DNA of 64,000 bases from Alphaproteobacteria bacterium (GTDB taxonomy: Bacteria > Pseudomonadota > Alphaproteobacteria > UBA9655), in the NCBI GenBank assembly GCA_021731585.1, contig JAKFXB010000124.1:9313-73312 (forward strand). Reading direction: 5' to 3'. How positions within the stretch are numbered: the first letter of the stretch is position 1; every line of letters starts with the position of its first letter. The notes beneath the pieces are model-generated. The model did not search any database and was not told the origin of the DNA. It worked only from the letters and a program-made list of their open reading frames with translations. Positions 984 to 15,990 of this stretch are shown here, piece after piece. Position numbers and translations under genes: made by a program.

Positions 984-1427
984 ATGCAAGACATACAAAC
1001 CAAGCTGATTGACCTTGCAAAACAGGCCCAAGAAAAATCCTATTCCCCCTATTCAAAGTTTGCTGTGGGAGCTGCATTGATGACCCAAGATGGGTCTATT
1101 TTTACAGGCTGCAATGTGGAAAATATTTCCTATGGGCTCTCCTGTTGCGGAGAAAGAAATGCTATTTTCAAGATGATTTCGGAAAAGGGGCCACATGAAA
1201 AAATCAAGGCGTTAGCGATTTCTACAAAAGCCGATATTCCTTGCTCTCCTTGCGGAGCATGCCGTCAGGTCATTCAGGAATTTAGTACGTCTGAGACCCT
1301 TGTATTTTTTAAGGGTAAAAGCGGTTATGTATCTTACGCCGTGAAAGATCTTTTACCTGGCGCCTTTACGGAATTCGAATCTATGAATCAGGACGGCTCT
1401 TCAACAACCATCCAATCGGGGATGTAG
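984..1427 (+). CDS. cdd: cytidine deaminase
   Basis: 147-aa ORF with the zinc-ligand motifs CGERNAI and PCGACRQV. An aaaggag RBS lies about 8 nt upstream. Confidence 0.9.
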   Translation: MQDIQTKLIDLAKQAQEKSYSPYSKFAVGAALMTQDGSIFTGCNVENISYGLSCCGERNAIFKMISEKGPHEKIKALAISTKADIPCSPCGACRQVIQEFSTSETLVFFKGKSGYVSYAVKDLLPGAFTEFESMNQDGSSTTIQSGM

Positions 1428-1428
1428 G
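1406..1428. repeat. 23-bp direct repeat, left copy (last seven codons plus TAG of cdd)
   Basis: aaccatccaatcggggatgtagg is identical to 2655-2677. Confidence 0.95.
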
Positions 1429-1432
1429 CAGT

Positions 1433-2605
1433 CTATGACTCAGTAACGGCATTTACCTCATGCATTATATCTCTCAAGCCTATAACTTCAACGTCCTTTG
1501 CAATGGGAAATCGTTCATCTCCCGCATAAACAATAAATTTCTTTGTTGGTTTTAAATCCTCACAGGCCATGTAGAATCCTTTTGATACTGTGGGTGCCAG
1601 GCTCCTTTTAATTTCAATGGCCCAAAGTTCTTGATTCCCTAAATCAATGACTAAATCTATTTCTGCTCCCCCTGCTGTTCTATAATACCCATAGGAGGCA
1701 TATTTAGATAAGGAGGAAATAAGATTTTCAATCACAAATCCTTCCCAGCTTCCTCCCACAACGGGATGCCCTAGCAATTCATCAAGTGTCTTGATTCCCA
1801 AAAGAGCATGACAAATTCCACTATCTCGAACATAAGTTTTAGGCGCTTTAATAAGTCGTTTTCTAGAGTTGTTGGTCCATGAAGCAAGACGTCTAACCAA
1901 AAGTAAATCGACCATTAAATCAAGGTAACGACTTGTTGTTATACCTTTCACCTCAAGCCCTTTCCCAAAACTTGCAGCATTAAAGGTCTGACCTTGGTTA
2001 TGGGCTAACATCGTCCAAAAACGACGTAACGTTTCTGCAGGGATTTTAGGTCCCAACTGCGGAATATCCCGCTCCAGGTAAGTTTTAATAAAATCGAGAC
2101 GCCACCTCAGACTCTCTTCGTCGTTCTCTGCTAGAAAACTCTCTGGAAATCCGCCGCGATACCAAAGTTTATAAAGATCATTCGAAGGAATTTCATCTAC
2201 TGTTAAAGGAAAAAGCTCGCAATACGCAATGCGCCCCGTTAGTGTTTCGCTAGTTTGTTTCAGAAGATCCATAGAGGCTGATCCTAGAAACAGAAATTGC
2301 CCTGTTTTTTTACCTTGCCGTCTTCGTTCGTCAATAATTCCTCGAAGGGGAGCAAAAAGATTAGGGATGTGTTGGATTTCATCAAATATTAGTAAATGAT
2401 CCGAATTTAAACGACAGTACTCTTCAATATCTGTAACTTTAGCTAAGTGACTAGGTAATTCTAAATCTAAATATATTCCTTTTCGAGGCTGAGCGATATT
2501 CAAAGCGAGGGTTGTTTTGCCTACCTGACGCGGGCCAGTTAAGACAACCGCTGGGCTCTTGTCTAAAAGATAATCTAATTTTTTTTTAACCTTCTTATCT
2601 ATCAT
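1433..2605 (-). CDS. AAA+ P-loop ATPase with C-terminal DUF4143 / PD-(D/E)xK-like module (AAA_14-DUF4143, COG1373-like)
   Basis: 390-aa ORF with Walker A GPRQVGKTT and Walker B LLIFDEIQ. The C-terminal EIDLV...AIEIK has D...ExK nuclease-like spacing. Confidence 0.85.
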   Translation of the reverse strand: MIDKKVKKKLDYLLDKSPAVVLTGPRQVGKTTLALNIAQPRKGIYLDLELPSHLAKVTDIEEYCRLNSDHLLIFDEIQHIPNLFAPLRGIIDERRRQGKKTGQFLFLGSASMDLLKQTSETLTGRIAYCELFPLTVDEIPSNDLYKLWYRGGFPESFLAENDEESLRWRLDFIKTYLERDIPQLGPKIPAETLRRFWTMLAHNQGQTFNAASFGKGLEVKGITTSRYLDLMVDLLLVRRLASWTNNSRKRLIKAPKTYVRDSGICHALLGIKTLDELLGHPVVGGSWEGFVIENLISSLSKYASYGYYRTAGGAEIDLVIDLGNQELWAIEIKRSLAPTVSKGFYMACEDLKPTKKFIVYAGDERFPIAKDVEVIGLRDIMHEVNAVTES

Positions 2606-2606
2606 G

Positions 2607-2641
2607 TATGCAAATATAACATCAGATGTTATATTTGCATA
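2607..2641. repeat. perfect 35-bp palindrome (17+1+17), candidate operator or recombination site
   Basis: tatgcaaatataacatc a gatgttatatttgcata starts 1 nt upstream of the ATPase start codon (2603-2605, minus strand). Confidence 0.9.
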
Positions 2642-2654
2642 GTTGTTTTTAAAT

Positions 2655-2677
2655 AACCATCCAATCGGGGATGTAGG
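2655..2677. repeat. 23-bp direct repeat, right copy
   Basis: Identical to 1406-1428. Flanking bases differ on both sides. Confidence 0.95.
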
Positions 2678-2726
2678 GTTAAACAGAGTTGGTTTAAGAA
2701 AAGATCGAAAAATTTTATAAGATGAC

Positions 2727-3011
2727 TCATCCAGAACTCTGTTGTTTTTCCTTCATCTTGAGCTCCTGCTGTCGGAGAGTTTCTCTCTCAAGAAAGTTAA
2801 GGTTATCCGCCCTATTCACCCGTGTGTGAAGAGAGCGCTGATGATGCCAACTTTCTTGCCTTGCCAAACACTTATCAAATTCCTGTGTGCCCTGGGCGTA
2901 CCCATAGTCTACACAGCGAGAGTGAAAAAGAGCTAATTGTTCCTCACGACTTAGCGGTGTGCACGCTGAAAGAAAACTCATCAAAGGCATTAAAACAATA
3001 AGCTTTTTCAT
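2727..3011 (-). CDS. small lipoprotein, unknown function
   Basis: Signal peptide with lipobox (MKKLIVLMPLMSFLSAC). The ATG at 3011, with GGAG upstream, is preferred over the GTG at 3026. Confidence 0.6.
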   Translation of the reverse strand: MKKLIVLMPLMSFLSACTPLSREEQLALFHSRCVDYGYAQGTQEFDKCLARQESWHHQRSLHTRVNRADNLNFLERETLRQQELKMKEKQQSSG

Positions 3012-3031
3012 ACTAAAAAACTCCACAAGAC

Positions 3032-3105
3032 TGGAGCGGGTGAAGGGAATCGAACCCTCGTCTGGAGCTTGGGAAGCTTCTGCTCTACCATTGAGCTACA
3101 CCCGC
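3032..3105 (-). tRNA. tRNA-Gly (anticodon CCC)
   Basis: The reverse complement reads gcgggtg ta gctc aatggta gagc a gaagc ttCCCaa gctcc agac gaggg ttcgatt ccctt cacccgc t cca. This folds as a cloverleaf, has an encoded CCA, and is close to the E. coli tRNA-Gly(CCC) I remember. Confidence 0.9.
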
Positions 3106-3215
3106 CATAGACAGATTTATACGAAAGATTTCGTAGCGCTGCAAGCCCCCCCTTTACAGGGGGAACGCTATTCGATAGGCTTTAAACATATTAAACAACA
3201 CTATTGAGTAAAATC

Positions 3216-4481
3216 ATGACTCCTTCCTTGGCCCGCAGTTGGATTGTTTGGGCGTGTGCGGCACTATTTTATTGCTATCAATTTCTTCTTCGTGTCTCTC
3301 CAAACGTGATGACAACAGAGTTGATGACTGACTTTCATGTAAATGCCTGCACTCTTGGCTTGCTTACCTCCTTTTATGCTTATGGTTACGCGGGTTTTCA
3401 AGTTCCTATAGGAAGCCTTTTGGATAAATTCGGCCCTCGGCGTCTTTTGGTGTGTGCTGCTATTACTTGCACAGGAGGAAGTTTTCTATTTGCATCTGCT
3501 GATACGGTCCTCGTTGCTTCAATCAGCCGCTTTCTTATTGGTGTTGGCTCTGCCTTTGGTTTTTTAAGTTGCATGAAGCTGGGTACTCTCTGGTTCCCTC
3601 CCAAACACATCTCTGTTGTGGTAGGCTTAACTCTCTTCTTGGGAACCGCTGGCGCTTCAGGAAGCTATCCCATGTCCTTCTTGGTGGATGCTTTTGGTTG
3701 GCGGGAGGCAGTTTGGTTGACGGCTCTTGGAGGCGTTTTTATTGCTGTCCTTATGGCTCTTGTCGTTCGAGATCACCCTCCTAAGGCTTTAGAAAGTTAT
3801 ATTAATCAACATCACGCCATTGGAAACCCCAACTTGGGTCTTTGGGAGGGCTTAATTGTGATTGTGCAAAAACGACAAACCTGGCTTTTAGGCTTTTATG
3901 GCTTAATGATGTTTATTCCCTTGGCGGGATTTGCCGACTTGTGGGGAATCCCTTTTTTAACGAACGTTCATCATATGGATAAACAATATGCGTCTCTTGC
4001 AAACACCTTTCTTTATATAGGTGTTGGCATAGGAACGCCTCTTTTTGCTCTTGTTGCCGATAAGATAAAGCGATTTAAAACAGTATTGCTCATCTCGTCC
4101 CTTGGCACCCTTTTTGCTTTTACCTTTGTTTTCTATGTAACTCCTCTCTCCCCCTTTATAATCATCTTTATGTTGATGATGGCAGGAATTCTGCTTGGGG
4201 GACAGTTTATGGCTTTTTCCATTGTTTGTGAAATTAATCCCCTCTCCGTTAGCGGTATGGCTACAGGTTTCCAGAATATGATTTGCATGATAAGTGCCAT
4301 CGCTATCCCTCCTCTTATCGGTCAACTTTTGGATTTTTTCTGGGAAGGAACCCTGGAAAATGGCATTCGCCTTTATTCACCTACAACTTATCAAATAGCG
4401 TTGACGAGCGTCATCGTCGCTTTGTTTTTGGCTACTTTAGCCGCCATTTTCATTAAAGAAGCCTATCCAGAGCGAGAGTGA
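3216..4481 (+). CDS. MFS transporter (paralog of 6333-7649)
   Basis: Multi-TM hydrophobic ORF that shares long identical runs with 6333-7649 (AALFYCYQF, LRVSP, GSAF.FLSC.KLGTLWFP). The ATG at 3216 is preferred over the TTG at 3204. Confidence 0.85.
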   Translation: MTPSLARSWIVWACAALFYCYQFLLRVSPNVMTTELMTDFHVNACTLGLLTSFYAYGYAGFQVPIGSLLDKFGPRRLLVCAAITCTGGSFLFASADTVLVASISRFLIGVGSAFGFLSCMKLGTLWFPPKHISVVVGLTLFLGTAGASGSYPMSFLVDAFGWREAVWLTALGGVFIAVLMALVVRDHPPKALESYINQHHAIGNPNLGLWEGLIVIVQKRQTWLLGFYGLMMFIPLAGFADLWGIPFLTNVHHMDKQYASLANTFLYIGVGIGTPLFALVADKIKRFKTVLLISSLGTLFAFTFVFYVTPLSPFIIIFMLMMAGILLGGQFMAFSIVCEINPLSVSGMATGFQNMICMISAIAIPPLIGQLLDFFWEGTLENGIRLYSPTTYQIALTSVIVALFLATLAAIFIKEAYPERE

Positions 4482-4507
4482 TATAATGCAGAAGAAGGTA
4501 GGGAGCC

Positions 4508-6199
4508 TTAATCACTGCCCCCCCATTTCAGCAACTCTTCATCAAAATCGCGTTGACAGCTTGGCGCTTTACACTTACGAAGGGCACCCGTCAGCACCTC
4601 TTCTTTACCCGTTTTGCGTAATGATTGACTCCGGCAAGCTTCTTGTTCGAGATACTCGGTAAAGGGCTTATCACCTCCACGCTTAGAGGCTTTGCGAAAA
4701 GCACCTGTATAAGCTTCCTCACTCCGGAACACAGGTCGAGGTAAATTTTTTTGTTTTAACAGTCCTAGCGCAAAAGCACGCGATGTACGTCCATTGGCAT
4801 CCGGACAGACATGAGTTTTCACAATGGTTTGGTGAAGTGCACCCGCAGCATCAAAAGTTTTTCCCTCTCGTAAGAGAGATACCACATTTGTATAGCCTGA
4901 CCTCATTTTTTCTCGAAGACCTTCTTGAGGAGAGTTGTCAAAGTCATAATATTCCGCGCAAAGAGAATAGCGGTCTGGAGTATAAAGCTTCGGATCTTTT
5001 TTAAAAATTGCAGTTACTACCTCCTCCCAAATAGCTTTTTTCCCTTGATCATCCATTTGAATGAGCCCTCGATTTACAAAATCTTGAATGAGTTTATTTA
5101 CTGCTGGTGTTAAAGAATTGTAAGTAGAAAGATGTAAGGGATGATCCGCTAACAAGTCTTTCATCCTTTCGGTGTGTTCGAATCTAGGATCACTTATTGG
5201 AAGTTTTGCAATGAGCATAGGATGGGATCTATAGGTATTTTCTCCAGGATTACCTGTTAATATAGAGTTTAATTTAAAAAGATGTTTCTCAAAAACTTCA
5301 AAAGAAGTTCCTTCTATAGGAGTAGGCATTATTTCTTCATCAACATACTTAAGACCTTCGCGCCACCTTGTAGCATCTGCAGCAGCCTGTAAGATCGGTG
5401 TGGGCGAAAGTTCCCCATCTACAACTCCAACACGGAAACGTTCTTGAAAAAGTGACACAAGACTTGAATAGTCGCCTGCCTCTATCTCTTCCTGCATTTG
5501 AGGTGTACTTCCTTCTAGGATTTCTGAAGCAGCTTGGTTAATTTCGTCCTCGTTCGTGTAGGTCGTCGGCAGCGCACAAACTCCTGGATGAACAAAACAC
5601 TGTTCTGCCTCTGACCATGGGTGACTAGTAGCTTCAATTCTACAGCTGCTGGAAGGATCCCGAGGTGACGCAGCTGGGCTAATCGCTTTCCTCATGTTAC
5701 TCACTTTACAAACTTCTGGTGGAAAAAAACACACTTCTGCTAAGCATGGTTCAGGAATCCTAGTCATGAAACTGTTGGAAGACTGAGAAGTTAAGGTACC
5801 ATTAGACAAAGAGGTAGAATTTGGGGCGCGAAAATTGGTCCTTAGAGACGTGTTTCCTAATTGAATAGCTTGGCAGGTACCTATCATTCCCGTTGAAACC
5901 ATGAGCCCCAAGAAAATATATGTGTTGGGATTTTCCCAATTTAAATGTGGTCCCCCAAACACAATTTCTGCTGGCAAAGGTTTTTTGCTTTGATGACTTG
6001 GTCGATTTCCTTTTATCATCTGATGACAGGACTTCTTGGAACGTAATTTTGATGACCCCTTTGCTCCCAAAACCTCTGCGTAGGGAGCAAAAGTCCAAAA
6101 AATTGTGACTAACACCAAAAATGCACTCTTAAATCGAATCATAATATCTCTTCTCATAATAATTAAAAAAAAGTTTCGAAGAAAATACTTATGTAACAT
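4508..6199 (-). CDS. secreted Fic (Fido) domain protein with atypical core motif
   Basis: 563-aa ORF with an N-terminal signal-like hydrophobic segment (MIRFKSAFLVLVTIFWTFAPYA; an alternative start is at 6142). The C-terminal Fic motif HVCPDANGRTSR is encoded at about 4781-4816. Confidence 0.8.
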   Translation of the reverse strand: MLHKYFLRNFFLIIMRRDIMIRFKSAFLVLVTIFWTFAPYAEVLGAKGSSKLRSKKSCHQMIKGNRPSHQSKKPLPAEIVFGGPHLNWENPNTYIFLGLMVSTGMIGTCQAIQLGNTSLRTNFRAPNSTSLSNGTLTSQSSNSFMTRIPEPCLAEVCFFPPEVCKVSNMRKAISPAASPRDPSSSCRIEATSHPWSEAEQCFVHPGVCALPTTYTNEDEINQAASEILEGSTPQMQEEIEAGDYSSLVSLFQERFRVGVVDGELSPTPILQAAADATRWREGLKYVDEEIMPTPIEGTSFEVFEKHLFKLNSILTGNPGENTYRSHPMLIAKLPISDPRFEHTERMKDLLADHPLHLSTYNSLTPAVNKLIQDFVNRGLIQMDDQGKKAIWEEVVTAIFKKDPKLYTPDRYSLCAEYYDFDNSPQEGLREKMRSGYTNVVSLLREGKTFDAAGALHQTIVKTHVCPDANGRTSRAFALGLLKQKNLPRPVFRSEEAYTGAFRKASKRGGDKPFTEYLEQEACRSQSLRKTGKEEVLTGALRKCKAPSCQRDFDEELLKWGGSD

Positions 6200-6332
6200 A
6201 TAATTATTTATTTCAAGTATTTTTTATTGCATAAATAAAAAAACAAACAATAATACTATGAATTACATTTTCCCGATTGACCCCTGAAAAAAGGATCGAT
6301 ACTCTTAAGCTTCTTTTTTAAATAGGAAATCA

Positions 6333-7649
6333 ATGGGTGTCATGACAAATTCCTCTTCAATCACAGCAAAGCCTGCTTCTTTTTTTCTTTCAAAAAGTTG
6401 GGTTATTTGGGGGTGTGCCGCTCTTTTTTATTGCTATCAATTTATGCTGCGCGTCTCTCCAGGTGTCATGGCTGAAGACCTGATGGCATCTTTTCAAGTG
6501 GATGGCTGCGCTTTAGGAACCTTAAGTGGATTTTATTATTATACCTATTCGGCACTTCAAATCCCTGTAGGGACCCTCATGGATCGCTTTAAGCCGCGAC
6601 GTCTTCTGACTTTTGCTGCCATTTTGTGCAGCGTGGGTGCCCTTGTTTTTTCTTCCGCCGATACTCTTTATGTAGCTGCATTTGGACGCGGCATGATTGG
6701 GGCCGGCTCTGCCTTTGCCTTTTTAAGCTGCCTTAAACTCGGCACCCTGTGGTTTCCCTCTCATAAGCTTCCCTTTGTCGTAGGGCTCACTCTCCTTTTA
6801 GGAAGCGTAGGAGGCGCCTCGGCAGGGTATCCTATGGGGTGGCTTGTGCAGGTTTCTGGATGGCGAGAGGCCATGTGGTTTGTCGCATTTGCGGGATTTG
6901 GCCTTTCCTTTGCGGCCTGGAGCATCGTTCGAGATAAAGCTCCCGATCATTTAGAAGAAATTATCTTAAAAAGTCACGGAGACAAGGAACACCACCTTCC
7001 TTCTGCAAGCATTTTGAAAAGTGTTGCTGTAGTGATAAGCAACCCTCAAAGCTGGCTTATTGCTTTGTATGGTGGATTTATGTACCTCCCTCTTTCCGGA
7101 TTTGCTGACCTTTGGGGCCCTCCTTTCCTGATGTCTACTTACCAGTTAGATAAATCAACAGCAGGCGGCATTGTTTCCACCGCCATGTATGTTGGCGTTG
7201 GGCTCGGCGCTCCACTCTTCCCCTTTCTCTGTCAACGCTTAAACGCTTATAAAGCTCCTGTTTTTATTTCATCTTTTGGTGCGTTAATTTGTCTGGCGAC
7301 TGTCTTTTATGTTCCTAACTTGCCCTTGTGGCTTTTAACATCCTTCTTATTTTTGGGAGGTTTTTTCTTAGGAGGACAGTTTCTTGGTTTCTCCATGACC
7401 TGCGCTCTTAACCCCTTATCTGCCAGCGGAACTGCCGGGGGATTCCATAATATGATGTGCATGTTAAGTGGAGTTATTTTTCAACCTTTCATTGGATGGC
7501 TTTTAGATTATAGTTGGGGCGGCAAAATGCTCAATGGTATTCGAGCCTATGATTCTATGGATTATGCTTTTGCTCTCAGCTCTATCAGCATTTCTTTACT
7601 TTTGGCTTGTTTTGTGGTCTTTCTTATAAAAGAACAATACACAAAATAA
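6333..7649 (+). CDS. MFS transporter (paralog of 3216-4481)
   Basis: 438-aa multi-TM ORF, collinear similarity to 3216-4481 along its whole length. Confidence 0.85.
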   Translation: MGVMTNSSSITAKPASFFLSKSWVIWGCAALFYCYQFMLRVSPGVMAEDLMASFQVDGCALGTLSGFYYYTYSALQIPVGTLMDRFKPRRLLTFAAILCSVGALVFSSADTLYVAAFGRGMIGAGSAFAFLSCLKLGTLWFPSHKLPFVVGLTLLLGSVGGASAGYPMGWLVQVSGWREAMWFVAFAGFGLSFAAWSIVRDKAPDHLEEIILKSHGDKEHHLPSASILKSVAVVISNPQSWLIALYGGFMYLPLSGFADLWGPPFLMSTYQLDKSTAGGIVSTAMYVGVGLGAPLFPFLCQRLNAYKAPVFISSFGALICLATVFYVPNLPLWLLTSFLFLGGFFLGGQFLGFSMTCALNPLSASGTAGGFHNMMCMLSGVIFQPFIGWLLDYSWGGKMLNGIRAYDSMDYAFALSSISISLLLACFVVFLIKEQYTK

Positions 7650-7658
7650 GGTAAAAAA

Positions 7659-8075
7659 ATGAAAAAATATTTCACCTTTCTTCTTGCTACCAGCCTGGTA
7701 AGTACGGCAGCTCTTGCTGGAATTCAAGTCCAAGACCATTGGGTTCGGGCTTCAACCGGCTCCAACACTGCCGCTTATATGAAACTTGTCAATATTTCCA
7801 ATAAAGATATCTCCCTCACAGGAGTATATTCACCTGTTTCGGCAAGTGGTGAATTGCATGAAGTTGTTGATATGGGTCAGGGAATGCAAATGCAAGAAAT
7901 TTCCGCCATAAGGATCCCTTCAAACGGAGAGATTGTTTTAATGCCTGGAAAAACGCATGTCATGCTTATGAATATTAAAGACGGCCCCCTTACGGAAGGA
8001 AAAACTGTTCCTCTCACCCTTGTGTTTAGCGATGGAGAAGAACTTCAATTAATGGCTCCTGTAAAGGCGCAATAA
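7659..8075 (+). CDS. periplasmic copper chaperone PCu(A)C (DUF461)
   Basis: Signal peptide, then H/M-rich motifs (HWVRAS, ELHEVVDMGQGMQMQ, PGKTHVMLM) typical of the PCu(A)C family. Confidence 0.8.
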   Translation: MKKYFTFLLATSLVSTAALAGIQVQDHWVRASTGSNTAAYMKLVNISNKDISLTGVYSPVSASGELHEVVDMGQGMQMQEISAIRIPSNGEIVLMPGKTHVMLMNIKDGPLTEGKTVPLTLVFSDGEELQLMAPVKAQ

Positions 8076-8103
8076 AGCACGATTCACTTAGAAAAGGTTT
8101 ACA

Positions 8104-9852
8104 TTGCCAGTTCGCGGAAAATTTTTAGACACATTGCGCTCACGTCTTTCCCTTTCGGAAATTGTTGGCGAAAAAGTCAAGTTGACGCGTAAAGGGCGTG
8201 AGTATCATGGACTCTGTCCCTTTCACCATGAAAAAACACCTTCCTTTACGGTAAATAATGAAAAGGAATTCTACCACTGCTTTGGTTGCGGCGCCCATGG
8301 AGATGCCATTCGCTTTCTCACTGAAATCCACAAGCTCACCTTTATGGAAGCAGTCAAAGAGCTGGCCGCCCGCGCAGGGTTGACAGTGCCTACTGAGATG
8401 ATAATTCGTGATGAAGGACCAAAAGAAAATCTCACTCCTCTTTTAGACGCTCTTCAAGAAGCTAGCCTTTGGTATCAAAAAAATTTAGCTCAAGGAAAAT
8501 TCAATGAGGCTTTACGGTATACCGAATCCCGAGGGATACGACCAGAAACGCTTCAAAAATTTGAGCTGGGTTATGCCCCTGAGGGGTATCATACCCTGGA
8601 AGGGCACTTAAAAGAAAAAGGCTTTGCTGAAAGCGTACTTTTAGAGACGGGACTTTCTGCTCAAGGGGAAGAGAAAAAGGCTCCCTATGACCGTTTCCGT
8701 GGACGCCTTATGTTTCCTATCCACAATACAAAAAAACAAGTCGTTGCTTTTGGTGGCCGCCTTTTAGATAAAGGAGAGCCTAAATATCTCAACTCTCCTG
8801 AAACATCGTTGTTTTCTAAAGGAAAGCTTCTCTATGGGTATGGTTTTGCTAAAGAAAAAGCGGCCTCCGATCCCCTTCTCATCGTGGAAGGGTATATGGA
8901 TGTTATTTCTCTTTATCAAGCCGGATACAAAGGCGCTGTGGCTCCCTTAGGAACAGCCCTTACAGAAGATCAAATCCTTTTGGCTTGGCGCTTAGACCCT
9001 GAACCCATTCTTTGCTTTGACGGTGATCCAGCAGGCTTAAAAGCTGCTGCACGAGCTGCTGAAAGGGTCTTGCCTCTTTTAAAACCAGGATACTCCTTAA
9101 GATTTGTTTTTCTCCCCCAAGGGGAAGACCCCGATAGCTTGATTCGTAAAAGCACTGAATTTCAAAAGCTTCTTTTAGGTGCACAGTCTCTTCTCGATAC
9201 TCTATGGATGTTTTTAACTCAAGGTAAAACTTTTGACACACCTGAAAAGAAAACAGCTCTGCAGCAGCAATATACATTTTGGACCCAGGCCATAAAGCAT
9301 ATAGACGTTGGCAAAAATTATCTTTTTGCTTTTAAGGATCTTTTTTATAAAAAAATTGTTAGAAAAAATGAGGGAAACACGCACTTTTCTCCCTTAAAAC
9401 GAAAAAATGTGAATTTATTATCCATTCATGAACATCTTCTTCTTGCAATTCTTATAAATCATCCCAATTTATTAGATGAGGCTAGTGATGATTTAGCCTT
9501 TTTAGAATTTAAAGAGGCTCGGCTTCATGAAATGCGAGAAGCTATTTTGCAGTTTTATGCAAACAACACCTCTCCAGAAGAGTCCTTAAAGGATTTTCTT
9601 CTTAAAGGTGGCTTTGAAAACGAGATAAAGAGGCTCCTCTCTCCTCAAATTCTCCTTCATGGAGCTTTTGCGAAAGCCTCTGCTTCTTTTGAAGAAGCGC
9701 GGGAAGGATGGAAGGAGATTTTTAGTCGACTTGAAAGACACTCAGCAAAGGATGATCTTCGCTCAGCGCAAGATTTCTTGGCGGATGAAATGTCTTCTGA
9801 GGCATGGCAACGCTTTAAAATGTTGAAAAAAAGCACTATGTTACACGATTAG
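8104..9852 (+). CDS. dnaG: DNA primase
   Basis: Zinc-ribbon motif CPFHHEKTPSF..CFGCGAHGD, a TOPRIM region (EGYMDVIS, FDGDPAG), and the conserved position upstream of rpoD. Apparent TTG start. Confidence 0.92.
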   Translation: MPVRGKFLDTLRSRLSLSEIVGEKVKLTRKGREYHGLCPFHHEKTPSFTVNNEKEFYHCFGCGAHGDAIRFLTEIHKLTFMEAVKELAARAGLTVPTEMIIRDEGPKENLTPLLDALQEASLWYQKNLAQGKFNEALRYTESRGIRPETLQKFELGYAPEGYHTLEGHLKEKGFAESVLLETGLSAQGEEKKAPYDRFRGRLMFPIHNTKKQVVAFGGRLLDKGEPKYLNSPETSLFSKGKLLYGYGFAKEKAASDPLLIVEGYMDVISLYQAGYKGAVAPLGTALTEDQILLAWRLDPEPILCFDGDPAGLKAAARAAERVLPLLKPGYSLRFVFLPQGEDPDSLIRKSTEFQKLLLGAQSLLDTLWMFLTQGKTFDTPEKKTALQQQYTFWTQAIKHIDVGKNYLFAFKDLFYKKIVRKNEGNTHFSPLKRKNVNLLSIHEHLLLAILINHPNLLDEASDDLAFLEFKEARLHEMREAILQFYANNTSPEESLKDFLLKGGFENEIKRLLSPQILLHGAFAKASASFEEAREGWKEIFSRLERHSAKDDLRSAQDFLADEMSSEAWQRFKMLKKSTMLHD

Positions 9853-9910
9853 GTTGTATATAGAGCGCAATTTATGATTTAGTATTGAGTAAATTTAAAG
9901 GATGGATTGA

Positions 9911-11857
9911 ATGGCAAATATGGCAAGTTCAACTGCAGAGACCACAAATCATGATGACAAAAGCCCCAAGGATATCGCTTTAGGAGAGAAAGCGATTAAG
10001 CAACTTCTCGCCCAAGGGAAACTGCGTGGGTATGTCACTTATGAAGAACTTAATGAAATTCTGCCAGAGGACAAACTAAGTTCTGAACAAATTGAAGATA
10101 TTATGTCCATGATTTCCGATATGGGCATCAATATTATTGAAGACGACGAAGCCGACCAAGAAGAAAAGCCCAAAAGCGCCCTGCAAGGGGACGAGGATGA
10201 GACTGAAGCCGCAGCTGAAGTCAGTGAAGCAGGAAGAACGGATGATCCGGTTCGTCTTTATCTCCGCGAGATGGGAACAGTTGAGCTTCTCTCCCGCGAA
10301 GGGGAAATTGAAATTGCAAAACGCATTGAGTCTGGCCGTGAAATGATGATTGGGGCTATTTGTGAAAGCCCCTTAACCATCCGTGCCATCGTCACCTGGC
10401 GCGATGCTCTTAATAAAGATCAAATGCTTTTAAGGGATATTATCGACATTGAATCAACATATACCAATGGTCCTTCCGATGAGGACCCCGATGGGGAAAA
10501 TTTTGTAGAAGGAGCTCTTCTAACAGATTCTGCCATTGAAGAGGAATCCTTAGAAGATGAAAATAGCTTTAGCGATGAGGATGCTGCCAGCCTCTCCATT
10601 TCTGCTATGGAAGATTCTCTGCGTCCCAAGGTTGTGGAAACCTTTGATCAAATCGCTAAAACCTATACACAACTTCGGAAACTTCAAGAACAACGCTTAA
10701 AGACCCTTCAGGAAGGGAAGAAAGCTTCTTCCCCCATTGAAAAAAAGTACGAAGATCTCCGCAATAAGCTTATCGATTTGATGGAGGGTATTCATCTTAA
10801 CTCCCCTCGTATTGAGCAACTTGTAGAGCAACTCTACACCTTTAACCGCAAACTTGTCGGTCTTGAGGGCCGTCTATTACGACTTGCTGAATCTTCGGGT
10901 GTAAGAAGAGAAGTCTTCCTCGAAAACTATTACGGAAGTGAGCTTGCCCCCGAGTGGTTTGAGAAAATTGAAGGCCTTTCTGGAAAAGGCTGGCAAAAGT
11001 TTTTGGAAAAACATAAGGATGAAGCCATCGAAATTCGCAAGACTATTGGTGAAGTTGCTGATGAAGCCGGTCTTCCTATTTCCGAATTAAGACGCATCGT
11101 AAGTACGGTCCAAAAGGGCGAACGTGACTCAAGCCGCGCGAAAAAAGAAATGATTGAAGCCAACCTTCGTCTTGTGATTTCTATCGCAAAGAAATACACC
11201 AACCGCGGTCTTCAATTTTTGGACCTCATCCAAGAGGGAAATATTGGCCTTATGAAAGCCGTTGATAAGTTTGAATATCGGCGCGGCTATAAGTTTTCAA
11301 CTTATGCCACTTGGTGGATTCGTCAAGCCATTACCCGCTCCATTGCGGACCAAGCACGCACTATCCGTATTCCGGTTCATATGATTGAAACTATCAATAA
11401 GCTAGTACGGACCTCTCGCCAAATGCTCCATGAAATTGGACGAGAGCCCACGCCTGAAGAACTCGCTAATAAGTTAAAGATGCCCCTTGATAAGGTGCGT
11501 AAAGTGATGAAAATTGCGAAAGAGCCTATCAGCCTTGAAACTCCTATTGGAGACGAGGAAGACGGTCATTTAGGCGACTTTATTGAGGATAAAAATGCTG
11601 TCGTGCCTGTGGATGCAGCCGTGCTTTCTAATTTGCGAGAGACAACAACGCGTGTCCTTGCGAGCCTTACTCCCCGTGAAGAGCGCGTTTTACGCATGCG
11701 ATTTGGTATCGGCATGAATACGGACCACACCTTAGAAGAGGTGGGACAACAGTTCGCTGTCACCCGTGAACGCATCCGACAAATCGAGGCCAAAGCCCTG
11801 CGCAAACTTAAGCATCCCAGCCGCTCTCGCAAGCTTCGCAGTTTTTTGGATACTTAA
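9911..11857 (+). CDS. rpoD: RNA polymerase sigma-70 factor RpoD
   Basis: Acidic region 1, then regions 2-4 ([66 protein letters not shown]). Confidence 0.96.
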
Positions 11858-11875
11858 AAAATCATTTGTAAGTCC

Positions 11876-12610
11876 ATGCATGTTAAGGCTATTAAAACTC
11901 ATCTCATTCAACCAGGTGAGCTACTAGAGACCATCCTTGATCGTTACATTCCTTCAATTTCGGAACAAGCTATCCTCGTTATCACGTCAAAAATTATCAG
12001 TATCTGCCAGGGGCATGTTCTTCCAAAGACAAGTATCTCTAAAGAGGCGTTAATTAAACAGGAAGCAGATGCCGTCGCTGAGACAAGAGAAAATCCTTAT
12101 GGTATTTATTTAACTCTTAAGAACAACATTCTGATTCCCTCAGCGGGCATTGATGAATCAAATGGAGATGACGTCTATATTTTGTATCCCAAGGATATCC
12201 AAAATACTGCCATAGCTCTTTGGAATTATGTTCGTCAAAAGCATTCCCTCGAGCATTTAGGGATTATAATTACAGATAGCCACACCACACCTCTGCGGCG
12301 CGGTGTTACAGGAATTGCTCTTGGCTGGTGTGGATTTGAGCCTCTTTATTCCTACGTAGGAAAGTCTGATCTTTATGACAAGTCCATGCGTGTGACCCAA
12401 ATCAATCTCCTTGATGCACTGGCAACGTCTGCTGTATTGGTTATGGGAGAAGGAAAGGAGCAAACGCCTCTTGCTGTTATCAGTGATGCACCCAAGATTT
12501 CCTTCGTCTCACGCCCCCCTATCCCTGTAGAAGAACAAAGCATTCTTATTTCCATGGAAGAAGATCTTTACGCCCCCCTTCTTATGGGCACGACATGGCT
12601 GAAACCTTGA
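11876..12610 (+). CDS. CofE-like gamma-glutamyl ligase (COG1478 family; possible folate polyglutamylation enzyme)
   Basis: Motifs ITSKIISICQG, PSAGIDESN and IIITDSHTTPLRRGVTGIALG are typical of the F420-0:gamma-glutamyl ligase superfamily. Confidence 0.75.
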   Translation: MHVKAIKTHLIQPGELLETILDRYIPSISEQAILVITSKIISICQGHVLPKTSISKEALIKQEADAVAETRENPYGIYLTLKNNILIPSAGIDESNGDDVYILYPKDIQNTAIALWNYVRQKHSLEHLGIIITDSHTTPLRRGVTGIALGWCGFEPLYSYVGKSDLYDKSMRVTQINLLDALATSAVLVMGEGKEQTPLAVISDAPKISFVSRPPIPVEEQSILISMEEDLYAPLLMGTTWLKP

Positions 12611-12647
12611 ACGTCATTTAGCATAAGCGCCGTAAAGCTAAAAGATT

Positions 12648-13457
12648 TTACCCCCTTAAAATAACAGTTTCTATTAACTTTCTGGAAATACTTGAGCTGG
12701 GGGGAAGTGGGGGTAATTTATTTAAATGAAACCAACGGGCATCCTCTATCTCGTTACCATCAATTTTAATTTCACCTCGTAAATATTCTGCCTTAAAAGC
12801 AATCATAAAACTGTTTGGGAAGGGCCAACTCTGGCTCCCAAAATATTTCAATTCTGTTATTTCCACTCCGACTTCTTCTTTGACTTCTCGATGCACCGCT
12901 TGTTCAGCTGTTTCACCAATATCAATAAAACCTGCAAGAGCGCTATATATTCCAGGTTTAAAATGCGCTGATCTGCCTAATAAGAGTTCATTTTCTCGTT
13001 GAATTAATACCATTACAGCTGGAAAAGGATTAGGAAAAAATGAAAGCTCGCATAAACTACATTTCTTTTCAGTGGTCTCCAAAACTTTTTGAATTTTTCC
13101 GCCACACTTGCTGCAGTATTGAAACTGTGCATCCCAAGTTAACCAATGCACGGCTCGCAAAATGCGCTGCCCTAGGACTGTGTCATTTGTTGCAGCTAAG
13201 AAAGACTTTACATTGTTTATATAGAATTTCTCTGTAAGTATTTGATCAGGATTTAAAGTACTATGACAGTTGATGATGAGAATTGAATCATCTAAATAAG
13301 CCTCGTTTACGACAAGCTTTAACTGTTTTAGAGTTTCTGCAAATCGTAGGATGGGGGAAGATGTTTGAGAGTTAACGATAATTCCATCGTCCGTAAAAAA
13401 CAGAGCAAAATGTTCTGCATAGTTTTTGCTTAAAATATCTTTTGTTAGGAGTTTCAT
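12648..13457 (-). CDS. nudC: NADH pyrophosphatase (Nudix, zinc ribbon)
   Basis: Zinc ribbon CSKCGG...CSLC, followed by the Nudix box GFIDIGETAEQAVHREVKEEVGV. Confidence 0.8.
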   Translation of the reverse strand: MKLLTKDILSKNYAEHFALFFTDDGIIVNSQTSSPILRFAETLKQLKLVVNEAYLDDSILIINCHSTLNPDQILTEKFYINNVKSFLAATNDTVLGQRILRAVHWLTWDAQFQYCSKCGGKIQKVLETTEKKCSLCELSFFPNPFPAVMVLIQRENELLLGRSAHFKPGIYSALAGFIDIGETAEQAVHREVKEEVGVEITELKYFGSQSWPFPNSFMIAFKAEYLRGEIKIDGNEIEDARWFHLNKLPPLPPSSSISRKLIETVILRG

Positions 13458-14059
13458 TAAGCCCTTGTTTCTTTTTGCTTAAAGCTTTGAGGGTTTGGAT
13501 TTTCGTCGATAAACTTTAGAATCGCTTTCCCACAATCAAAAGCAGAGGTACAGGTTGTATCAATGATCATATCATAAGATCTTTCTGGCACGTGAACACG
13601 CCCAATTTGATCGCGACCCAGGCCGAGGGCGCGATCTCCCCGAAGAATCTCTCGCTCTTGAAGCGTTTTCAAATCACACATAACACCAATAAAATAGACC
13701 GTATGATCTTTGAGAGCCCCTACATAACGATTCAAACTCTCATCCCCAAAGAGAACTTCATCGAGGATGATATCATGTCCGTCATCCGCAAGGGTTTGAA
13801 TGACCTTAGGAATTGTTTTGCCAAGGGCTTGTCCATAGGGTCCGTTTTCAATCCGCATCAAAGGTCCTAAATCATCATGCTCAGGGATAAAGTGGAATCC
13901 TTGATCTGCCTTATCTCCAAAGCCTACATAAGCAGAAGGCATCATGTGAAAGAAGGTATCGATACCAATCAAAAGATACGGTTTTTCGGAAAGAAATTGA
14001 AGGGCTCGTGCAAGGGTTGATTTCCCCGCAGAGGAACAACCGTTCAGAAAAATGATCAT
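13457..14059 (-). CDS. P-loop kinase of the chloramphenicol phosphotransferase-like (CPT) family
   Basis: N-terminal P-loop NGCSSAGKST in a protein of about 200 aa. Its stop overlaps the nudC start by 1 nt (TAATG), suggesting an operon. Confidence 0.7.
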   Translation of the reverse strand: MIIFLNGCSSAGKSTLARALQFLSEKPYLLIGIDTFFHMMPSAYVGFGDKADQGFHFIPEHDDLGPLMRIENGPYGQALGKTIPKVIQTLADDGHDIILDEVLFGDESLNRYVGALKDHTVYFIGVMCDLKTLQEREILRGDRALGLGRDQIGRVHVPERSYDMIIDTTCTSAFDCGKAILKFIDENPNPQSFKQKETRA

Positions 14060-14191
14060 TAATGAGCCTCTTAACTTTTGGTGAAAATTTGAATTTGATA
14101 CAACTCTTTCAAGATATATTTATAGTTTGCCACATGAATGAAAGATGTCAAATTTTTTGTGTAGGGTTGATAGGCCATTTTAAAAATGGGC

Positions 14192-14219
14192 TTGACTATA
14201 TAGTAAACTTACATATTAT
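14192..14219 (+). promoter_or_regulatory. putative sigma-70 promoter of the SRPBCC-MarR operon
   Basis: TTGACT (14192-14197), a 16-nt spacer, then TATTAT (14214-19). It lies about 30 nt upstream of the RBS-preceded ATG at 14248. Confidence 0.35.
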
Positions 14220-14247
14220 ATAAATGATTATAATCAAGGAGTCTATT

Positions 14248-14664
14248 ATGTGGATACGAACCTACAGCAAGATTTTTAAAAACATCAAAAAGGAAAATAT
14301 TTGGCAGATTTGGACCGATGTTAATAGTTGGCCGAAATGGCATGGAGATTTAGAGTATTGTCAAATGGAGGGCCCCTTTACTGTCGGCAATTATTTCATG
14401 CTAAAGCCCAAAGGCGTCAAAGCCTTTAAAATTGCGTTGACGCACATTGAGGAAGGTCGAAAATTCACCGATTGTACCTCCTTTTTTGGGGCAAAGATGT
14501 ATGATACCCATGAGCTGGAAGAAACTCCGAATGGCTTACGTCTCATTAATACTTTAGTAGTGACTGGGCCCCTTAATTTTTTATGGGTTAAGCTTGTCGC
14601 CCAAGATGTTGCAGATAGCGTTCCAAAAGAAATGGAAGCCCTCGTTGACCTCGCAAGAGCCTAA
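14248..14664 (+). CDS. SRPBCC (polyketide cyclase/dehydrase-like) family protein
   Basis: Size of about 140 aa with a W..WPKWH motif. AAGGAG lies 7 nt before the ATG at 14248, which is preferred over 14224. Confidence 0.7.
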   Translation: MWIRTYSKIFKNIKKENIWQIWTDVNSWPKWHGDLEYCQMEGPFTVGNYFMLKPKGVKAFKIALTHIEEGRKFTDCTSFFGAKMYDTHELEETPNGLRLINTLVVTGPLNFLWVKLVAQDVADSVPKEMEALVDLARA

Positions 14665-15963: not shown

Positions 15964-15990
15964 GAGAAGGGTTTATGTTTAAAAAACTTT

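What the first reader, a model, noticed from the sequence alone, without database searches (positions are those of the whole stretch)
1406..2677. A lone ATPase-nuclease gene sits between perfect 23-bp direct repeats that duplicate the 3' end of cdd
Seen: aaccatccaatcggggatgtagg occurs at 1406-1428 (last seven codons plus TAG of cdd) and again at 2655-2677. The bases on both sides of each copy differ. The 1,226 bp in between contain exactly one gene (minus strand, stop 4 nt from the left repeat) and a 35-bp perfect palindrome next to the right repeat. A perfect 23-mer repeated 1.25 kb apart is not a chance event. The geometry, with a host gene end duplicated so the host ORF stays intact, is what attL/attR sites of site-specific integrative elements look like. 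A 23-bp repeat is far longer than normal transposase target-site duplications. Yet the segment holds no integrase, transposase or terminal inverted repeat, and none is present anywhere in the 64 kb. Inference: the gene arrived as a discrete cassette by an unknown mechanism. It may be mobilised in trans or by its own PD-(D/E)xK module.
Basis: partly seen in the sequence, partly recalled or inferred. Interest (0 to 1): 0.8.

Follow-up and report, generated by a model that had tools for sequence, protein, structure and literature searches.

The report
Inserted ATPase gene splits overlapping genes
The 23-base repeat is real, but it is the shared tail of two overlapping host genes (ygfZ and cdd), duplicated when a horizontally acquired ATPase-nuclease gene landed between them in an ancestor, and nothing shows that the gene moves itself.

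Summary
A perfect 23-mer (27 of 29 when extended) flanks one AAA_14/DUF4143 gene that has a 35-bp palindrome at its start.

The right-hand copy is the relic 3' end of ygfZ (antisense: YIPDWMVI*). In the closest relatives ygfZ sits directly upstream of the same ATPase. In an outgroup, ygfZ and cdd are convergent and overlap on that very stretch. So the repeat is a duplicated host-gene overlap, and each copy keeps one gene intact.

The insertion is ancestral and inherited vertically. In relatives the repeat has decayed to about 73-82% identity. In this genome 49 kb of core genes later separated ygfZ from the ATPase.

The same junction holds other cargo in relatives: a kinase-like gene, and a Schlafen/AlbA_2 gene flanked by a 130-nt duplication. 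Only 3 of about 80 loci outside this clade show border repeats, of 23 to more than 160 nt. No recombinase is present. I therefore read the ATPase as cargo (PADLOC candidate PDC-S01), not as the mobilising agent.

The palindrome proved to be conserved in most of about 80 homologues from many phyla. It includes the start codon and looks like a portable promoter/operator.

The parts
984..1427 (+). cdd (cytidine deaminase). Its last 7-8 codons are read from the duplicated overlap.
   Evidence: Pfam dCMP_cyt_deam_1 and _2. The tail DGSSTTIQSGM* read antisense gives YIPDWMVVEEPS*, the ancestral ygfZ end.
1400..1428 (+). Left repeat copy. It is the cdd C-terminal tail plus stop codon, and in antisense a copy of the ygfZ 3' end.
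   Evidence: Two substitutions relative to the right copy (TTAAAT to TTCAAC) remove an in-frame TAA, so cdd reads through; this is read directly from the sequence.
1433..2605 (-). ATPase1: AAA+ ATPase, winged helix and PD-(D/E)xK nuclease (AAA_14 + DUF4143; PADLOC PDC-S01). Walker A is GPRQVGKTT, Walker B is LLIFDEIQ, and the nuclease motif is EIDLV...IEIK.
   Evidence: Pfam. PADLOC 9e-86. AlphaFold2 model with pLDDT 89 whose best PDB matches are 2qen, 2fna and Orc1/Cdc6. GC3 0.31 against 0.41-0.45 for neighbours.
2603..2644 (-). Conserved dyad-symmetric upstream element (palindrome 2607-2641, the preceding AAC, and the ATG). I infer a portable promoter/operator for a leaderless or very short-leader mRNA.
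   Evidence: A recognisable form is present in most of about 80 homologues from many phyla (64 of 84 loci passed my palindrome filter). Over 52 aligned sequences, 83% of cells pair against 30-45% for slid controls, and 110 cells show double changes. RNA fold -17.6 kcal/mol, z -6.6. TGnTATATT ends at -8, read.
2649..2677 (-). Right repeat copy. It is the non-coding relic of the last 8 codons plus stop of ygfZ (YIPDWMVI*). It contains the hairpin CATCC-N6-GGATG followed by a T-rich run.
   Evidence: 28 of 29 identical to the real ygfZ end of L007 and L092. No ygfZ homology beyond 2678. Terminator-like call at 2673-2658.
2678..51907 (.). 49-kb block of core genes now separating the relic and ATPase1 from ygfZ. 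It is a lineage-specific rearrangement, not a mobile island.
   Evidence: The block holds dnaG, rpoD, argS, serS, secDF, tgt, clpXP, tig, rpsB, tsf, pyrH and a TLC ATP/ADP translocase. All relatives have ygfZ next to the ATPase or to cdd.
51908..51923 (-). Remnant of the ATPase1 palindrome's left arm (AACTATGCAAATtTAA), left directly after the ygfZ stop codon.
   Evidence: It shows that ygfZ and the ATPase1 cassette were once contiguous in this lineage too.
51924..52721 (-). ygfZ (CAF17/YgfZ folate-binding Fe-S protein). It is the gene whose 3' end and 5' end are both duplicated.
   Evidence: NCBIfam TIGR03317. 85% DNA identity to ygfZ of L007.
52678..52741 (-). D2L: the ribosome-binding region plus first 14 codons of ygfZ. 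It is the left copy of the 64-nt duplication flanking ATPase2.
52736..53908 (-). ATPase2: second AAA_14/DUF4143 paralogue, 390 aa, 25% identical to ATPase1.
   Evidence: tblastn. PADLOC PDC-S01 3e-46.
53905..53981 (-). D1a: the cognate upstream region of ATPase2, with two 31-nt units containing AGGGAGTATACTCC palindromes.
   Evidence: The same element precedes 82-84% identical homologues in three unrelated contexts.
53993..54056 (-). D2R: pseudo-copy of the ygfZ 5' end, 92% identical to D2L.
54067..54143 (-). D1b: a second copy of the ATPase2 upstream region (87%). It is joined to D2R with no ORF between them, so it is a cassette remnant.
   Evidence: The same D1-to-ygfZ junction is found in L092 and L007, which lack ATPase2.

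Best explanation
The repeat is the duplicated overlap of two convergent host genes.

Shown:
- In the outgroup L095, ygfZ and cdd converge and share their 3' ends on opposite strands.
- In this clade that stretch exists twice, with DNA inserted in between. The copy next to cdd encodes the cdd tail. The copy next to the ATPase promoter encodes, or here once encoded, the ygfZ tail.
- The ATPase1 insertion predates the split of this genome from L007 and L011 and has been inherited vertically.
- In this genome a later rearrangement placed 49 kb of core genes between ygfZ and the cassette. It left a 29-nt ygfZ relic by the ATPase and 16 nt of the ATPase palindrome by ygfZ.

Inferred:
- The ATPase is cargo. 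It is a self-contained, horizontally transferred single-gene unit of the PDC-S01 defence-candidate family. It brings its own dyad-symmetric promoter/operator, which includes the start codon. That would let it be expressed, and probably insulated from read-through, wherever it lands.
- The DNA entered by a host-level, recombinase-independent event: illegitimate or duplicative insertion, or a small tandem duplication followed by insertion.
- Only events that duplicated the overlap could survive, because both host genes need that stretch.
- Deletion bias then trimmed everything except the constrained bases. That would explain why the repeat ends at the two stop codons.
- Later cargo turnover at this junction probably runs through homologous recombination in the flanking core genes.
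For: 1. The right copy is the ygfZ end. The reverse complement of 2649-2677 reads YIPDWMVI*. The real ygfZ ends of L007 and L092 differ from it by 1 nt and are followed by the same palindrome and ATPase start.
2. Empty state. In L095, ygfZ (4001-4906, +) and cdd (4825-5292, -) overlap by 82 nt. The cdd tail FIQKDE* is antisense to ygfZ YSSFWMN, at the position homologous to TIQSGM*/YIPDWMV here.
3. The antisense of the cdd tail here reads YIPDWMVVEEPS*, matching the real ygfZ ends of L093 (WMILEEPS*) and L094 (WMCLEDPS*).
4. The insertion is old and vertical. DNA identity between the window and L007 is 90.7% for the ATPase, 89% for cdd, 85% for ygfZ and 86% for glyS. The repeat has decayed to 82% in L011 and about 73% in L007 (my count).
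5. The junction is a hotspot with other cargo. L094 has a kinase-like gene between 49-nt repeats at 76%. L093 has a Schlafen/AlbA_2-HATPase_c_4 gene between 130-nt repeats at 92%, plus an XRE-type gene.
6. No recombinase is found in the window.
7. Border repeats are not a family trait. In the scan of 81 loci, 4 exceed the 99th percentile of the null: L011, which belongs to this clade, plus L086, L016 and L013. Their lengths are 23 to more than 160 nt and their offsets from the gene differ. There are none at L172-L173 or L174-L178.
8. The cassette is self-contained. The palindrome is conserved and covaries across phyla.
9. The 49-kb block is core genome. ygfZ keeps 16 nt of the palindrome.
Against: - Only one empty-site genome was found (L095). 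That state could itself arise by recombination between the repeats.
- The repeat is perfect here (23 of 23) although it is older than the split from L007 and L011. About 3 differences would be expected, which gives roughly 5% probability at about 12% divergence (my estimate). Gene conversion or some function of the 23-mer, such as its hairpin, may be involved.
- The outer edge of the relic at 2677/2678 coincides within a base with the edge of the ancient duplication. That needs either trimming down to the hairpin or a shared fragile site.
- Flanking repeats are enriched around these cassettes compared with shifted windows: 3 of 81 loci score 14 or more against 1 of 395 controls, and 2 of 81 exceed every control. 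Some insertion-linked duplication process is therefore real and remains unexplained.
- I ran no control on other recently acquired genes.
Confidence: 0.6

Rival explanations
1. Att-like integration in trans. A circular form of the cassette carrying one copy of the 23-29-nt core integrates and excises by recombination at that core. The recombination could be RecA-dependent Campbell-type or use an unlinked site-specific recombinase. The two repeat copies would then be attL and attR.
For: - The geometry fits: direct repeats tightly abut a 1.22-kb unit, with 4 nt beyond the stop codon and 7 nt beyond the palindrome.
- A single-copy state exists in L095.
- The structure around ATPase2 is exactly what a single crossover of a circle at the ygfZ 5' end would give.
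- The ATPase is 95.8% identical between L007 and L011 while the flanking genes are about 86%, which suggests the cassette is exchanged between lineages.
Against: - No recombinase gene is in the 64 kb.
- The core is host sequence, coding on both strands, and is present in genomes without the cassette.
- All 6 contigs carrying this exact cdd also carry the ATPase, so no empty variants turned up.
- Homologues at other sites carry no such repeat.
- 23-29 nt is at the lower limit for homologous recombination (my own knowledge).
Confidence: 0.15
2. Tandem duplication followed by loss. The ATPase cassette originally lay upstream of ygfZ, where ATPase2 lies now. A tandem duplication of the cassette plus ygfZ followed. 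Loss of the first cassette and of the second ygfZ body, except the part cdd needs, then left ygfZ-cassette-relic/cdd. Under this model no insertion into the overlap ever happened.
For: - Remnants of just this kind exist. D1b is joined to D2R next to an intact D1a-ATPase2-D2L unit.
- L092 and L007 keep the promoter remnant without the ORF.
- The 49-kb block swap with a 45-50-nt duplicated junction fits duplication followed by loss.
- In L086, at least 160 nt of upstream sequence is repeated downstream of the gene.
Against: - It needs more steps than an insertion.
- No trace of a ygfZ body or 5' end remains between the ATPase1 stop codon and the cdd stop codon; only 4-8 nt lie there.
- It does not explain how unrelated cargo reached the same junction in L093 and L094.
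Confidence: 0.12
3. Self-mobilising cassette. The AAA+ ATPase/PD-(D/E)xK protein recognises its own palindrome and inserts the gene at staggered breaks, producing long target duplications of variable length.
For: - The family is enormous, patchily distributed and 55-70% identical across phyla.
- Close homologues sit at different sites between core genes.
- A conserved dyad element sits at the 5' edge of the unit.
- The fold resembles Orc1/Cdc6-type DNA-binding AAA+ proteins with a winged helix.
- Flanking direct repeats are enriched relative to shifted windows.
Against: - Repeat lengths are 23, 29, 43, 64 and more than 160 nt. Their offsets from the gene range from 0-165 nt upstream to 0-66 nt downstream. 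That is inconsistent for one enzyme.
- About 95% of loci have no repeats.
- There is no second terminal site or terminal inverted repeat.
- Unrelated cargo at the same junction shows the same signature without this protein.
- The dyad element is adequately explained as a promoter/operator.
Confidence: 0.07

Closest known systems
PADLOC phage-defence candidate PDC-S01 (AAA_14 ATPase fused to the DUF4143 PD-(D/E)xK domain; COG1373)
   Same: Both window genes hit the PDC-S01 models strongly, at 9e-86 and 3e-46, and have the Pfam architecture. DUF4143 is classed as PD-(D/E)XK in PMC3424549. The PDC candidates were defined from genes found embedded between the genes of BREX, DISARM and type I restriction-modification systems (bioRxiv 10.1101/2024.01.29.577857). 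That matches the tight insertion between genes seen here.
   Different: Here the genes sit between housekeeping genes of a probable obligate intracellular alphaproteobacterium, not inside a defence system. Defence activity of PDC-S01 is unproven. One representative tested in E. coli was not among the protective systems (bioRxiv 10.1101/2024.09.26.614923). The conserved dyad element at the start codon is not mentioned in any of the few papers I found on this family.
Integrative islands and prophages whose att sites duplicate the 3' end of a host gene, classically a tRNA or tmRNA gene (my own knowledge)
   Same: Direct repeats flank the inserted DNA. The host gene end is duplicated so the host ORF stays intact. 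A single-copy state exists in a relative.
   Different: There is no integrase. The repeated core is host sequence coding on both strands, not element-borne. The repeat length differs between events at the same site: 29, 49 and 130 nt. The cargo differs as well.
Horizontal-transfer hotspots between conserved core genes, with cargo turnover by flanking homologous recombination (my own knowledge of the comparative-genomics literature)
   Same: One junction, ygfZ|cdd, holds different single-gene cargo in related genomes. The ATPase is more similar between L007 and L011 than the flanking genes are.
   Different: This hotspot was created by prising apart two overlapping genes, and each round leaves a duplicated gene end.
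Fold-back protection of IS transposase genes (IS10, IS50 and IS200-type inverted repeats that hide the start site in read-through transcripts; my own knowledge)
   Same: An inverted repeat spans the start codon. The likely promoter lies inside it, so only transcripts coming from outside would contain both arms.
   Different: This was not tested. The wobble-pair bias is weak, with 41 G-T against 26 A-C in the core. A DNA-level operator for a dimeric protein fits equally well. No transposase is involved.
Archaeal AAA+ ATPases PABY2304 (PDB 2qen) and Sso1545 (2fna), and Orc1/Cdc6
   Same: These are the best structural matches to the AlphaFold2 model: TM 0.45-0.52, an AAA+ core followed by a winged helix.
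   Different: Sequence identity is only 13-15%. No PDB entry is detectable by sequence. The C-terminal PD-(D/E)xK domain is extra.

Membership tests
PDC-S01 / AAA_14-DUF4143 ATPase-nuclease | N-terminal AAA_14 P-loop domain followed by the DUF4143 domain | tested here: met
   Pfam AAA_14 4e-26 (residues 17-139) and DUF4143 7e-45 (residues 178-335). PADLOC PDLC04790 9e-86.
PDC-S01 / AAA_14-DUF4143 ATPase-nuclease | Intact Walker A, Walker B and PD-(D/E)xK catalytic motifs | tested here: met
   GPRQVGKTT, LLIFDEIQ and EIDLV...IEIK are read from the translation. G29, K30, T32, D75, E76, E315 and D317 are invariant across 30 homologues.
PDC-S01 / AAA_14-DUF4143 ATPase-nuclease | Anti-phage activity | not testable with these tools
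   The family is a candidate only. One representative was not protective in E. coli.
Site-specific integrative element (attL/attR) | A tyrosine or serine recombinase encoded in or next to the element | tested here: not met
   No such Pfam domain in any ORF of 200 aa or more in the 64 kb. Only one distant homologue locus (L172) has a neighbouring tyrosine-recombinase-like gene, and it scores below the Pfam cut-off.
Site-specific integrative element (attL/attR) | Direct repeats at both borders and an empty site with one copy in relatives | tested here: met
   However, the single copy is a host gene overlap.
Site-specific integrative element (attL/attR) | The core sequence travels with the element, so the same att core is seen wherever the element is found | tested here: not met
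   Homologues at 76-77% identity in other contexts have no such repeat. The core is ygfZ/cdd coding sequence.
IS or transposon | Transposase gene and terminal inverted repeats | tested here: not met
   No transposase domain. The only strong inverted repeat is the internal palindrome at one end.
IS or transposon | Target-site duplication of fixed length | tested here: not met
   Lengths are 29, 43, 64 and more than 160 nt, and most loci have none.
Integron gene cassette | An attC site downstream of a mostly promoterless ORF, with an integron integrase nearby | tested here: not met
   The palindrome is upstream, abuts and includes the ATG, and is conserved in sequence across the family. No integrase is present.

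The most novel reading that the evidence does not exclude
AAA_14/DUF4143 (PDC-S01) genes are autonomous single-gene mobile elements. The protein binds the conserved dyad at its own start codon through its winged helix. It then uses its ATPase and PD-(D/E)xK nuclease to insert the gene between host genes, producing long target duplications of variable length. This would explain the enrichment of flanking repeats, the family's very wide distribution and its habit of lying embedded inside operons.
Probability: 0.07. Interest if true: 0.85.

Novelty: new member of a known kind. Interest (0 to 1): 0.4.

Why it matters
- It removes a false lead. The att-like 23-mer is a duplicated host gene overlap, not the signature of a new integration system.
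- It documents how DNA can enter a junction where two essential-looking genes share their ends, how that junction then becomes a recurrent landing site, and how the duplicated ends decay.
- It gives a concrete, testable regulatory element for PDC-S01, reported as the fourth most common defence candidate in prokaryotes. The element is a dyad of about 40 bp that spans the start codon and is conserved across phyla. It could be an autoregulatory operator or an insulator against read-through transcription.
- It leaves one real open point: why several of these cassettes are bordered by long duplications of variable length.

Tried and rejected
- Chance or dispersed repeat: rejected. There are 2 copies and none expected.
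- Empty site in the same population: not found. All 6 contigs with this exact cdd carry the ATPase. One variant (L006) differs only by a 1-bp frameshift in cdd.
- The 49 kb between the relic and ygfZ as a genomic island: rejected. It holds core genes.
- A recombinase next to the hotspot: the 429-aa gene upstream of ygfZ in L007 has no Pfam hit. It is unrelated to the tyrosine-recombinase-like 429-aa gene of L172.
- Known RNA family at the palindrome: none. Rfam finds only the tRNA.
- Solved structure by sequence: none.
- Strict sigma-70 scan: it does not call the palindrome a promoter in this window, because the -35 matches only 3 of 6. The promoter reading rests on the extended -10 and on family conservation.
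- Deciding between an RNA hairpin and a DNA operator from wobble pairs: inconclusive. Counts were 37 against 31, and 41 against 26.
- Sharp cassette ends inferred from homologues at about 80% identity: rejected as uninformative. Neutral flanks would be saturated at that distance.
- Literature searches on DUF4143, COG1373, AAA_14 and duplication of gene overlaps gave nothing mechanistic.
- L155, where ygfZ lies near glyS in a high-GC genome, is unrelated to this hotspot.
Full report
**Observation.** The 23-mer AACCATCCAATCGGGGATGTAGG occurs exactly twice in the window, at 1406-1428 and 2655-2677. No further copies appear with up to 3 mismatches, and none is expected by chance. With two mismatches the repeat extends to 29 nt, at 1400-1428 and 2649-2677. 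Between the copies lies one gene, 1433-2605 on the minus strand, 390 aa. It matches Pfam AAA_14 and DUF4143. A perfect 17+1+17 palindrome at 2607-2641 lies one base from its ATG. The left copy is the end of cdd. All 46 ORFs of 200 aa or more in the window were scanned, and none has an integrase or transposase domain.

**What the right-hand copy is.** Proteins 90-92% identical to the ATPase are encoded in two related assemblies: L007 (GCA_019748065.1, an alphaproteobacterial MAG) and L011. In both, the gene order is ygfZ, then the ATPase, then cdd, glyS and glyQ on the opposite strand. Read on the minus strand, window 2677-2649 is CCTACATCCCCGATTGGATGGTTATTTAA, which translates as YIPDWMVI*. 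In L007 and L092 the same sequence, with one difference, is the real 3' end of ygfZ. It is followed by the same spacer, palindrome and ATPase start. The right copy is therefore a relic of the ygfZ 3' end. The repeat as a whole is the ygfZ tail on one strand and the cdd tail on the other.

**The empty state.** A metagenome scan with YgfZ found more distant relatives that keep ygfZ, cdd and glyS together. In L095, ygfZ (4001-4906, +) and cdd (4825-5292, -) converge and overlap by 82 nt. The cdd tail FIQKDE* is encoded antisense to ygfZ YSSFWMN, at the position homologous to TIQSGM*/YIPDWMV in the window (alignment A1). The antisense of the window's cdd tail reads YIPDWMVVEEPS*. That matches the real ygfZ ends of L093 (WMILEEPS*) and L094 (WMCLEDPS*). 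One stretch of DNA therefore originally served both genes. In this clade it has been duplicated, with DNA inserted between the copies so that each gene keeps its own. Two substitutions in the cdd-side copy (TTAAAT to TTCAAC) remove an in-frame stop codon, and the ygfZ-side copy ends four to five codons early at a new TAA. Both points are read.

**Age and inheritance.** DNA identity between the window and L007 is 90.7% for the ATPase, 89% for cdd, 85% for ygfZ and 86% for glyS. This is consistent with one ancestral insertion inherited vertically. The repeat is still recognisable in the relatives but has decayed: 28 nt at 82% in L011, and about 73% with a 3-nt indel in L007 (my count). The ATPase of L007 and L011 is 95.8% identical while their flanking genes are about 86% identical. 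That hints at exchange of the cassette by recombination in the flanks.

**A later rearrangement in this genome.**
- Here ygfZ lies 49 kb away (51924-52721, minus strand, same orientation).
- Its stop codon is followed by AACTATGCAAATtTAA, the first 16 nt of the ATPase1 palindrome region.
- The intervening 2678-51907 holds core genes: dnaG, rpoD, argS, serS, secDF, tgt, clpXP, tig, rpsB, tsf, pyrH and a TLC ATP/ADP translocase.
- The block is therefore a chromosomal rearrangement, not an island.
- It duplicated about 45-50 nt, so that ygfZ kept its end and the ATPase kept its complete palindrome.
- No further ygfZ homology lies beyond 2678.
- The relic contains a small hairpin, CATCC-N6-GGATG, followed by a T-rich run and scored as terminator-like. 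This may be why it has been retained; that is inference.

**A hotspot with other cargo.**
- In L094 a kinase-like gene (Pfam Pkinase) sits between ygfZ and cdd, flanked by 49-nt repeats at 76%.
- In L093 a Schlafen/AlbA_2-HATPase_c_4 gene is flanked by 130-nt repeats of the ygfZ 3' end at 92%. An XRE-type gene and the older cdd-tail copy follow.
- Duplication of the ygfZ end therefore accompanies insertions that have nothing to do with the ATPase.

**The second paralogue.** ATPase2 (52736-53908, 25% identical to ATPase1, also PDC-S01) lies directly upstream of ygfZ. It is flanked by a 64-nt duplication of the ygfZ 5' end at 92%. A 77-nt upstream region occurs twice at 87%: once in front of ATPase2, and once joined to the pseudo 5' end with no ORF. 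Homologues 82-84% identical to ATPase2 sit in three other contexts (pth/ychF, EamA/PIN and kdsB/tilS). All carry the same upstream element, made of 31-nt units containing AGGGAGTATACTCC, and none has flanking repeats. That element therefore belongs to the ATPase2 cassette. L092 and L007 keep the element joined to ygfZ without the ORF, at the same junction as the window's ORF-less copy. The simplest reading is a tandem duplication of the cassette plus the ygfZ 5' end, with the ORF lost from one copy, rather than a target-site duplication. L092 also keeps the ATPase1 palindrome and five codons before the sequence diverges at the contig end.

**Is the border repeat a family trait?**
- I compared the 200 nt upstream of the palindrome with the region just downstream of the stop codon in 81 homologue loci from many phyla, using windows shifted along the same loci as controls.
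- Four loci exceed the 99th percentile of the null: L011, which belongs to this clade, plus L086, L016 and L013.
- L086 has at least 160 nt duplicated. L016 has 43 nt at 84%. L013 has 23 nt that form part of a hairpin repeat.
- The repeats start 0-165 nt upstream of the palindrome and 0-66 nt downstream of the stop codon.
- Homologues at 76-77% identity, between atp and sdh genes (L172) and between pnt and lpxB (L173), have none.
- So there is a real enrichment over background: 3 of 81 loci score 14 or more against 1 of 395 controls, and 2 of 81 exceed every control. But there is no fixed length or position, which argues against one dedicated enzyme.

**The palindrome.**
- A recognisable form of the dyad precedes most of the roughly 80 homologues at 54-73% identity, from Gammaproteobacteria to Bacteroidota, Acidobacteriota, Gemmatimonadota, Verrucomicrobiota and Planctomycetota. 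64 of 84 loci passed my palindrome filter.
- The consensus is AAC-TATGCAAAT-N-ATTTGCATA-ATG.
- On 52 aligned sequences, 83% of cells pair against 30-45% for slid controls. 110 cells carry changes on both sides, and the covariation score is 0.31 against at most 0.09.
- In most sequences the dyad includes the start codon. The T of the ATG pairs in 41 of 52, and the G in 39 of 52.
- In the window, TGnTATATT ends at -8. In many homologues TTGCAA lies 16-17 nt upstream of a TATAAT-like hexamer, and the right arm fits the Bacteroidota TAnnTTTG motif (read; the motifs are from my own knowledge).
- I infer a portable promoter for a leaderless or very short-leader mRNA, overlapped by a symmetric operator.
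- Read-through transcripts would contain both arms and fold at -17.6 to -37 kcal/mol, hiding the ATG.
- Wobble-pair counts do not decide between an RNA hairpin and a DNA site. A strict sigma-70 scan does not call the site in this window.

**The protein.**
- The AlphaFold2 model (pLDDT 89, pTM 0.88) shows an AAA+ core, a winged helix and a C-terminal alpha/beta domain.
- The best PDB matches are the archaeal ATPases 2qen and 2fna, then Orc1/Cdc6 bound to origin DNA, STAND proteins and RuvB.
- No PDB entry matches by sequence.
- DUF4143 is listed as a PD-(D/E)XK family of unknown function (PMC3424549).
- PADLOC files the family as PDC-S01. PMC12988326 describes it as the fourth most common defence candidate in prokaryotes. 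The PDC set was defined from genes embedded in BREX, DISARM and type I restriction-modification systems (bioRxiv 10.1101/2024.01.29.577857). One representative was not among the protective systems in an E. coli test.

**Verdict.**
- The inference that the gene arrived as a discrete cassette is supported.
- The repeat is best explained as the duplicated ygfZ/cdd overlap at a recurrent insertion junction, kept because each copy serves a host gene and trimmed to the constrained bases.
- The ATPase is cargo with its own promoter/operator. Self-mobilisation and an att-type mechanism are not excluded, but they lack support.
- The unexplained residue is threefold: the mild enrichment of variable-length duplications around these cassettes, the perfect identity of the two copies here, and the coincidence of the relic edge with the old duplication edge.

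Noticed in passing
window 2603-2644; loci L012-L091, L172, L173 (about 45 nt upstream of each ATPase start): A dyad-symmetric element of about 40 bp (AAC-TATGCAAAT...ATTTGCATA-ATG) that includes the start codon. A recognisable form precedes most of about 80 homologues from many phyla, and it covaries. It looks like a portable promoter/operator for a leaderless mRNA. None of the few papers I found on this family mentions it.
   Followed up: yes
window 52678-54143: The second PDC-S01 paralogue (ATPase2) lies directly upstream of ygfZ. It is flanked by a 64-nt duplication of the ygfZ 5' end. Its own upstream region is present twice, and one of those copies has no ORF.
   Followed up: yes
window 51908-51923 and 2678-51907: 16 nt of the ATPase1 palindrome remain attached to the ygfZ stop codon. 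49 kb of core genes now lie between ygfZ and the ATPase1 cassette, bordered by a diverged duplication of about 45-50 nt.
   Followed up: partly
window 22330-23880, 4508-6199, 49860-50894: A TLC ATP/ADP translocase, a large protein with a weak Fic hit, and a secreted-looking kinase-like protein homologous to the L094 cargo gene. Together they suggest an obligate intracellular alphaproteobacterium with effector proteins.
   Followed up: partly
L172 5179-6468: A 429-aa tyrosine-recombinase-like gene (Phage_integrase, E 3e-5, below the Pfam cut-off; contains an HWLRHTG motif). It starts on the last base of the stop codon of a 77% identical ATPase homologue, between the atp and sdh operons. This is the only such neighbour among the loci examined.
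   Followed up: partly
L093 4663-4792 and 6517-6646; 6400-6441: A Schlafen/AlbA_2-HATPase_c_4 gene is flanked by a 130-nt, 92% identical duplication of the ygfZ 3' end. Four tandem copies of a 10-nt unit (CAAACTCCGG) follow the gene.
   Followed up: partly
L086 1-160 and 1444-1608; L016 3757-3799 and 5227-5269: Two unrelated genomes (MAGs labelled Woeseiaceae and Lysobacterales) have ATPase homologues bordered by direct duplications of at least 160 nt and of 43 nt. The cause is unknown.
   Followed up: partly
L007 versus L011, ATPase gene: The ATPase is 95.8% identical at DNA level between the two relatives, while the adjacent cdd and ygfZ are about 86% identical. This suggests recent exchange of the cassette between lineages.
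   Followed up: no
L173 5142-5179: A 76% identical ATPase homologue overlaps the 3' end of convergent lpxB by 38 nt, with no duplication. This is another example of very tight insertion next to a core gene.
   Followed up: no
window 2658-2673 (and 1409-1424): The 23-mer itself contains the inverted repeat CATCC-N6-GGATG. On the minus strand it is followed by GTTATTTAAA and is scored as terminator-like. It may act as a terminator in the convergent overlap.
   Followed up: no
L174 494-1522: A DDE_3 transposase gene lies about 2.5 kb upstream of an 82% identical ATPase2 homologue in a 1.46-Mb contig. No link to the ATPase was established.
   Followed up: no
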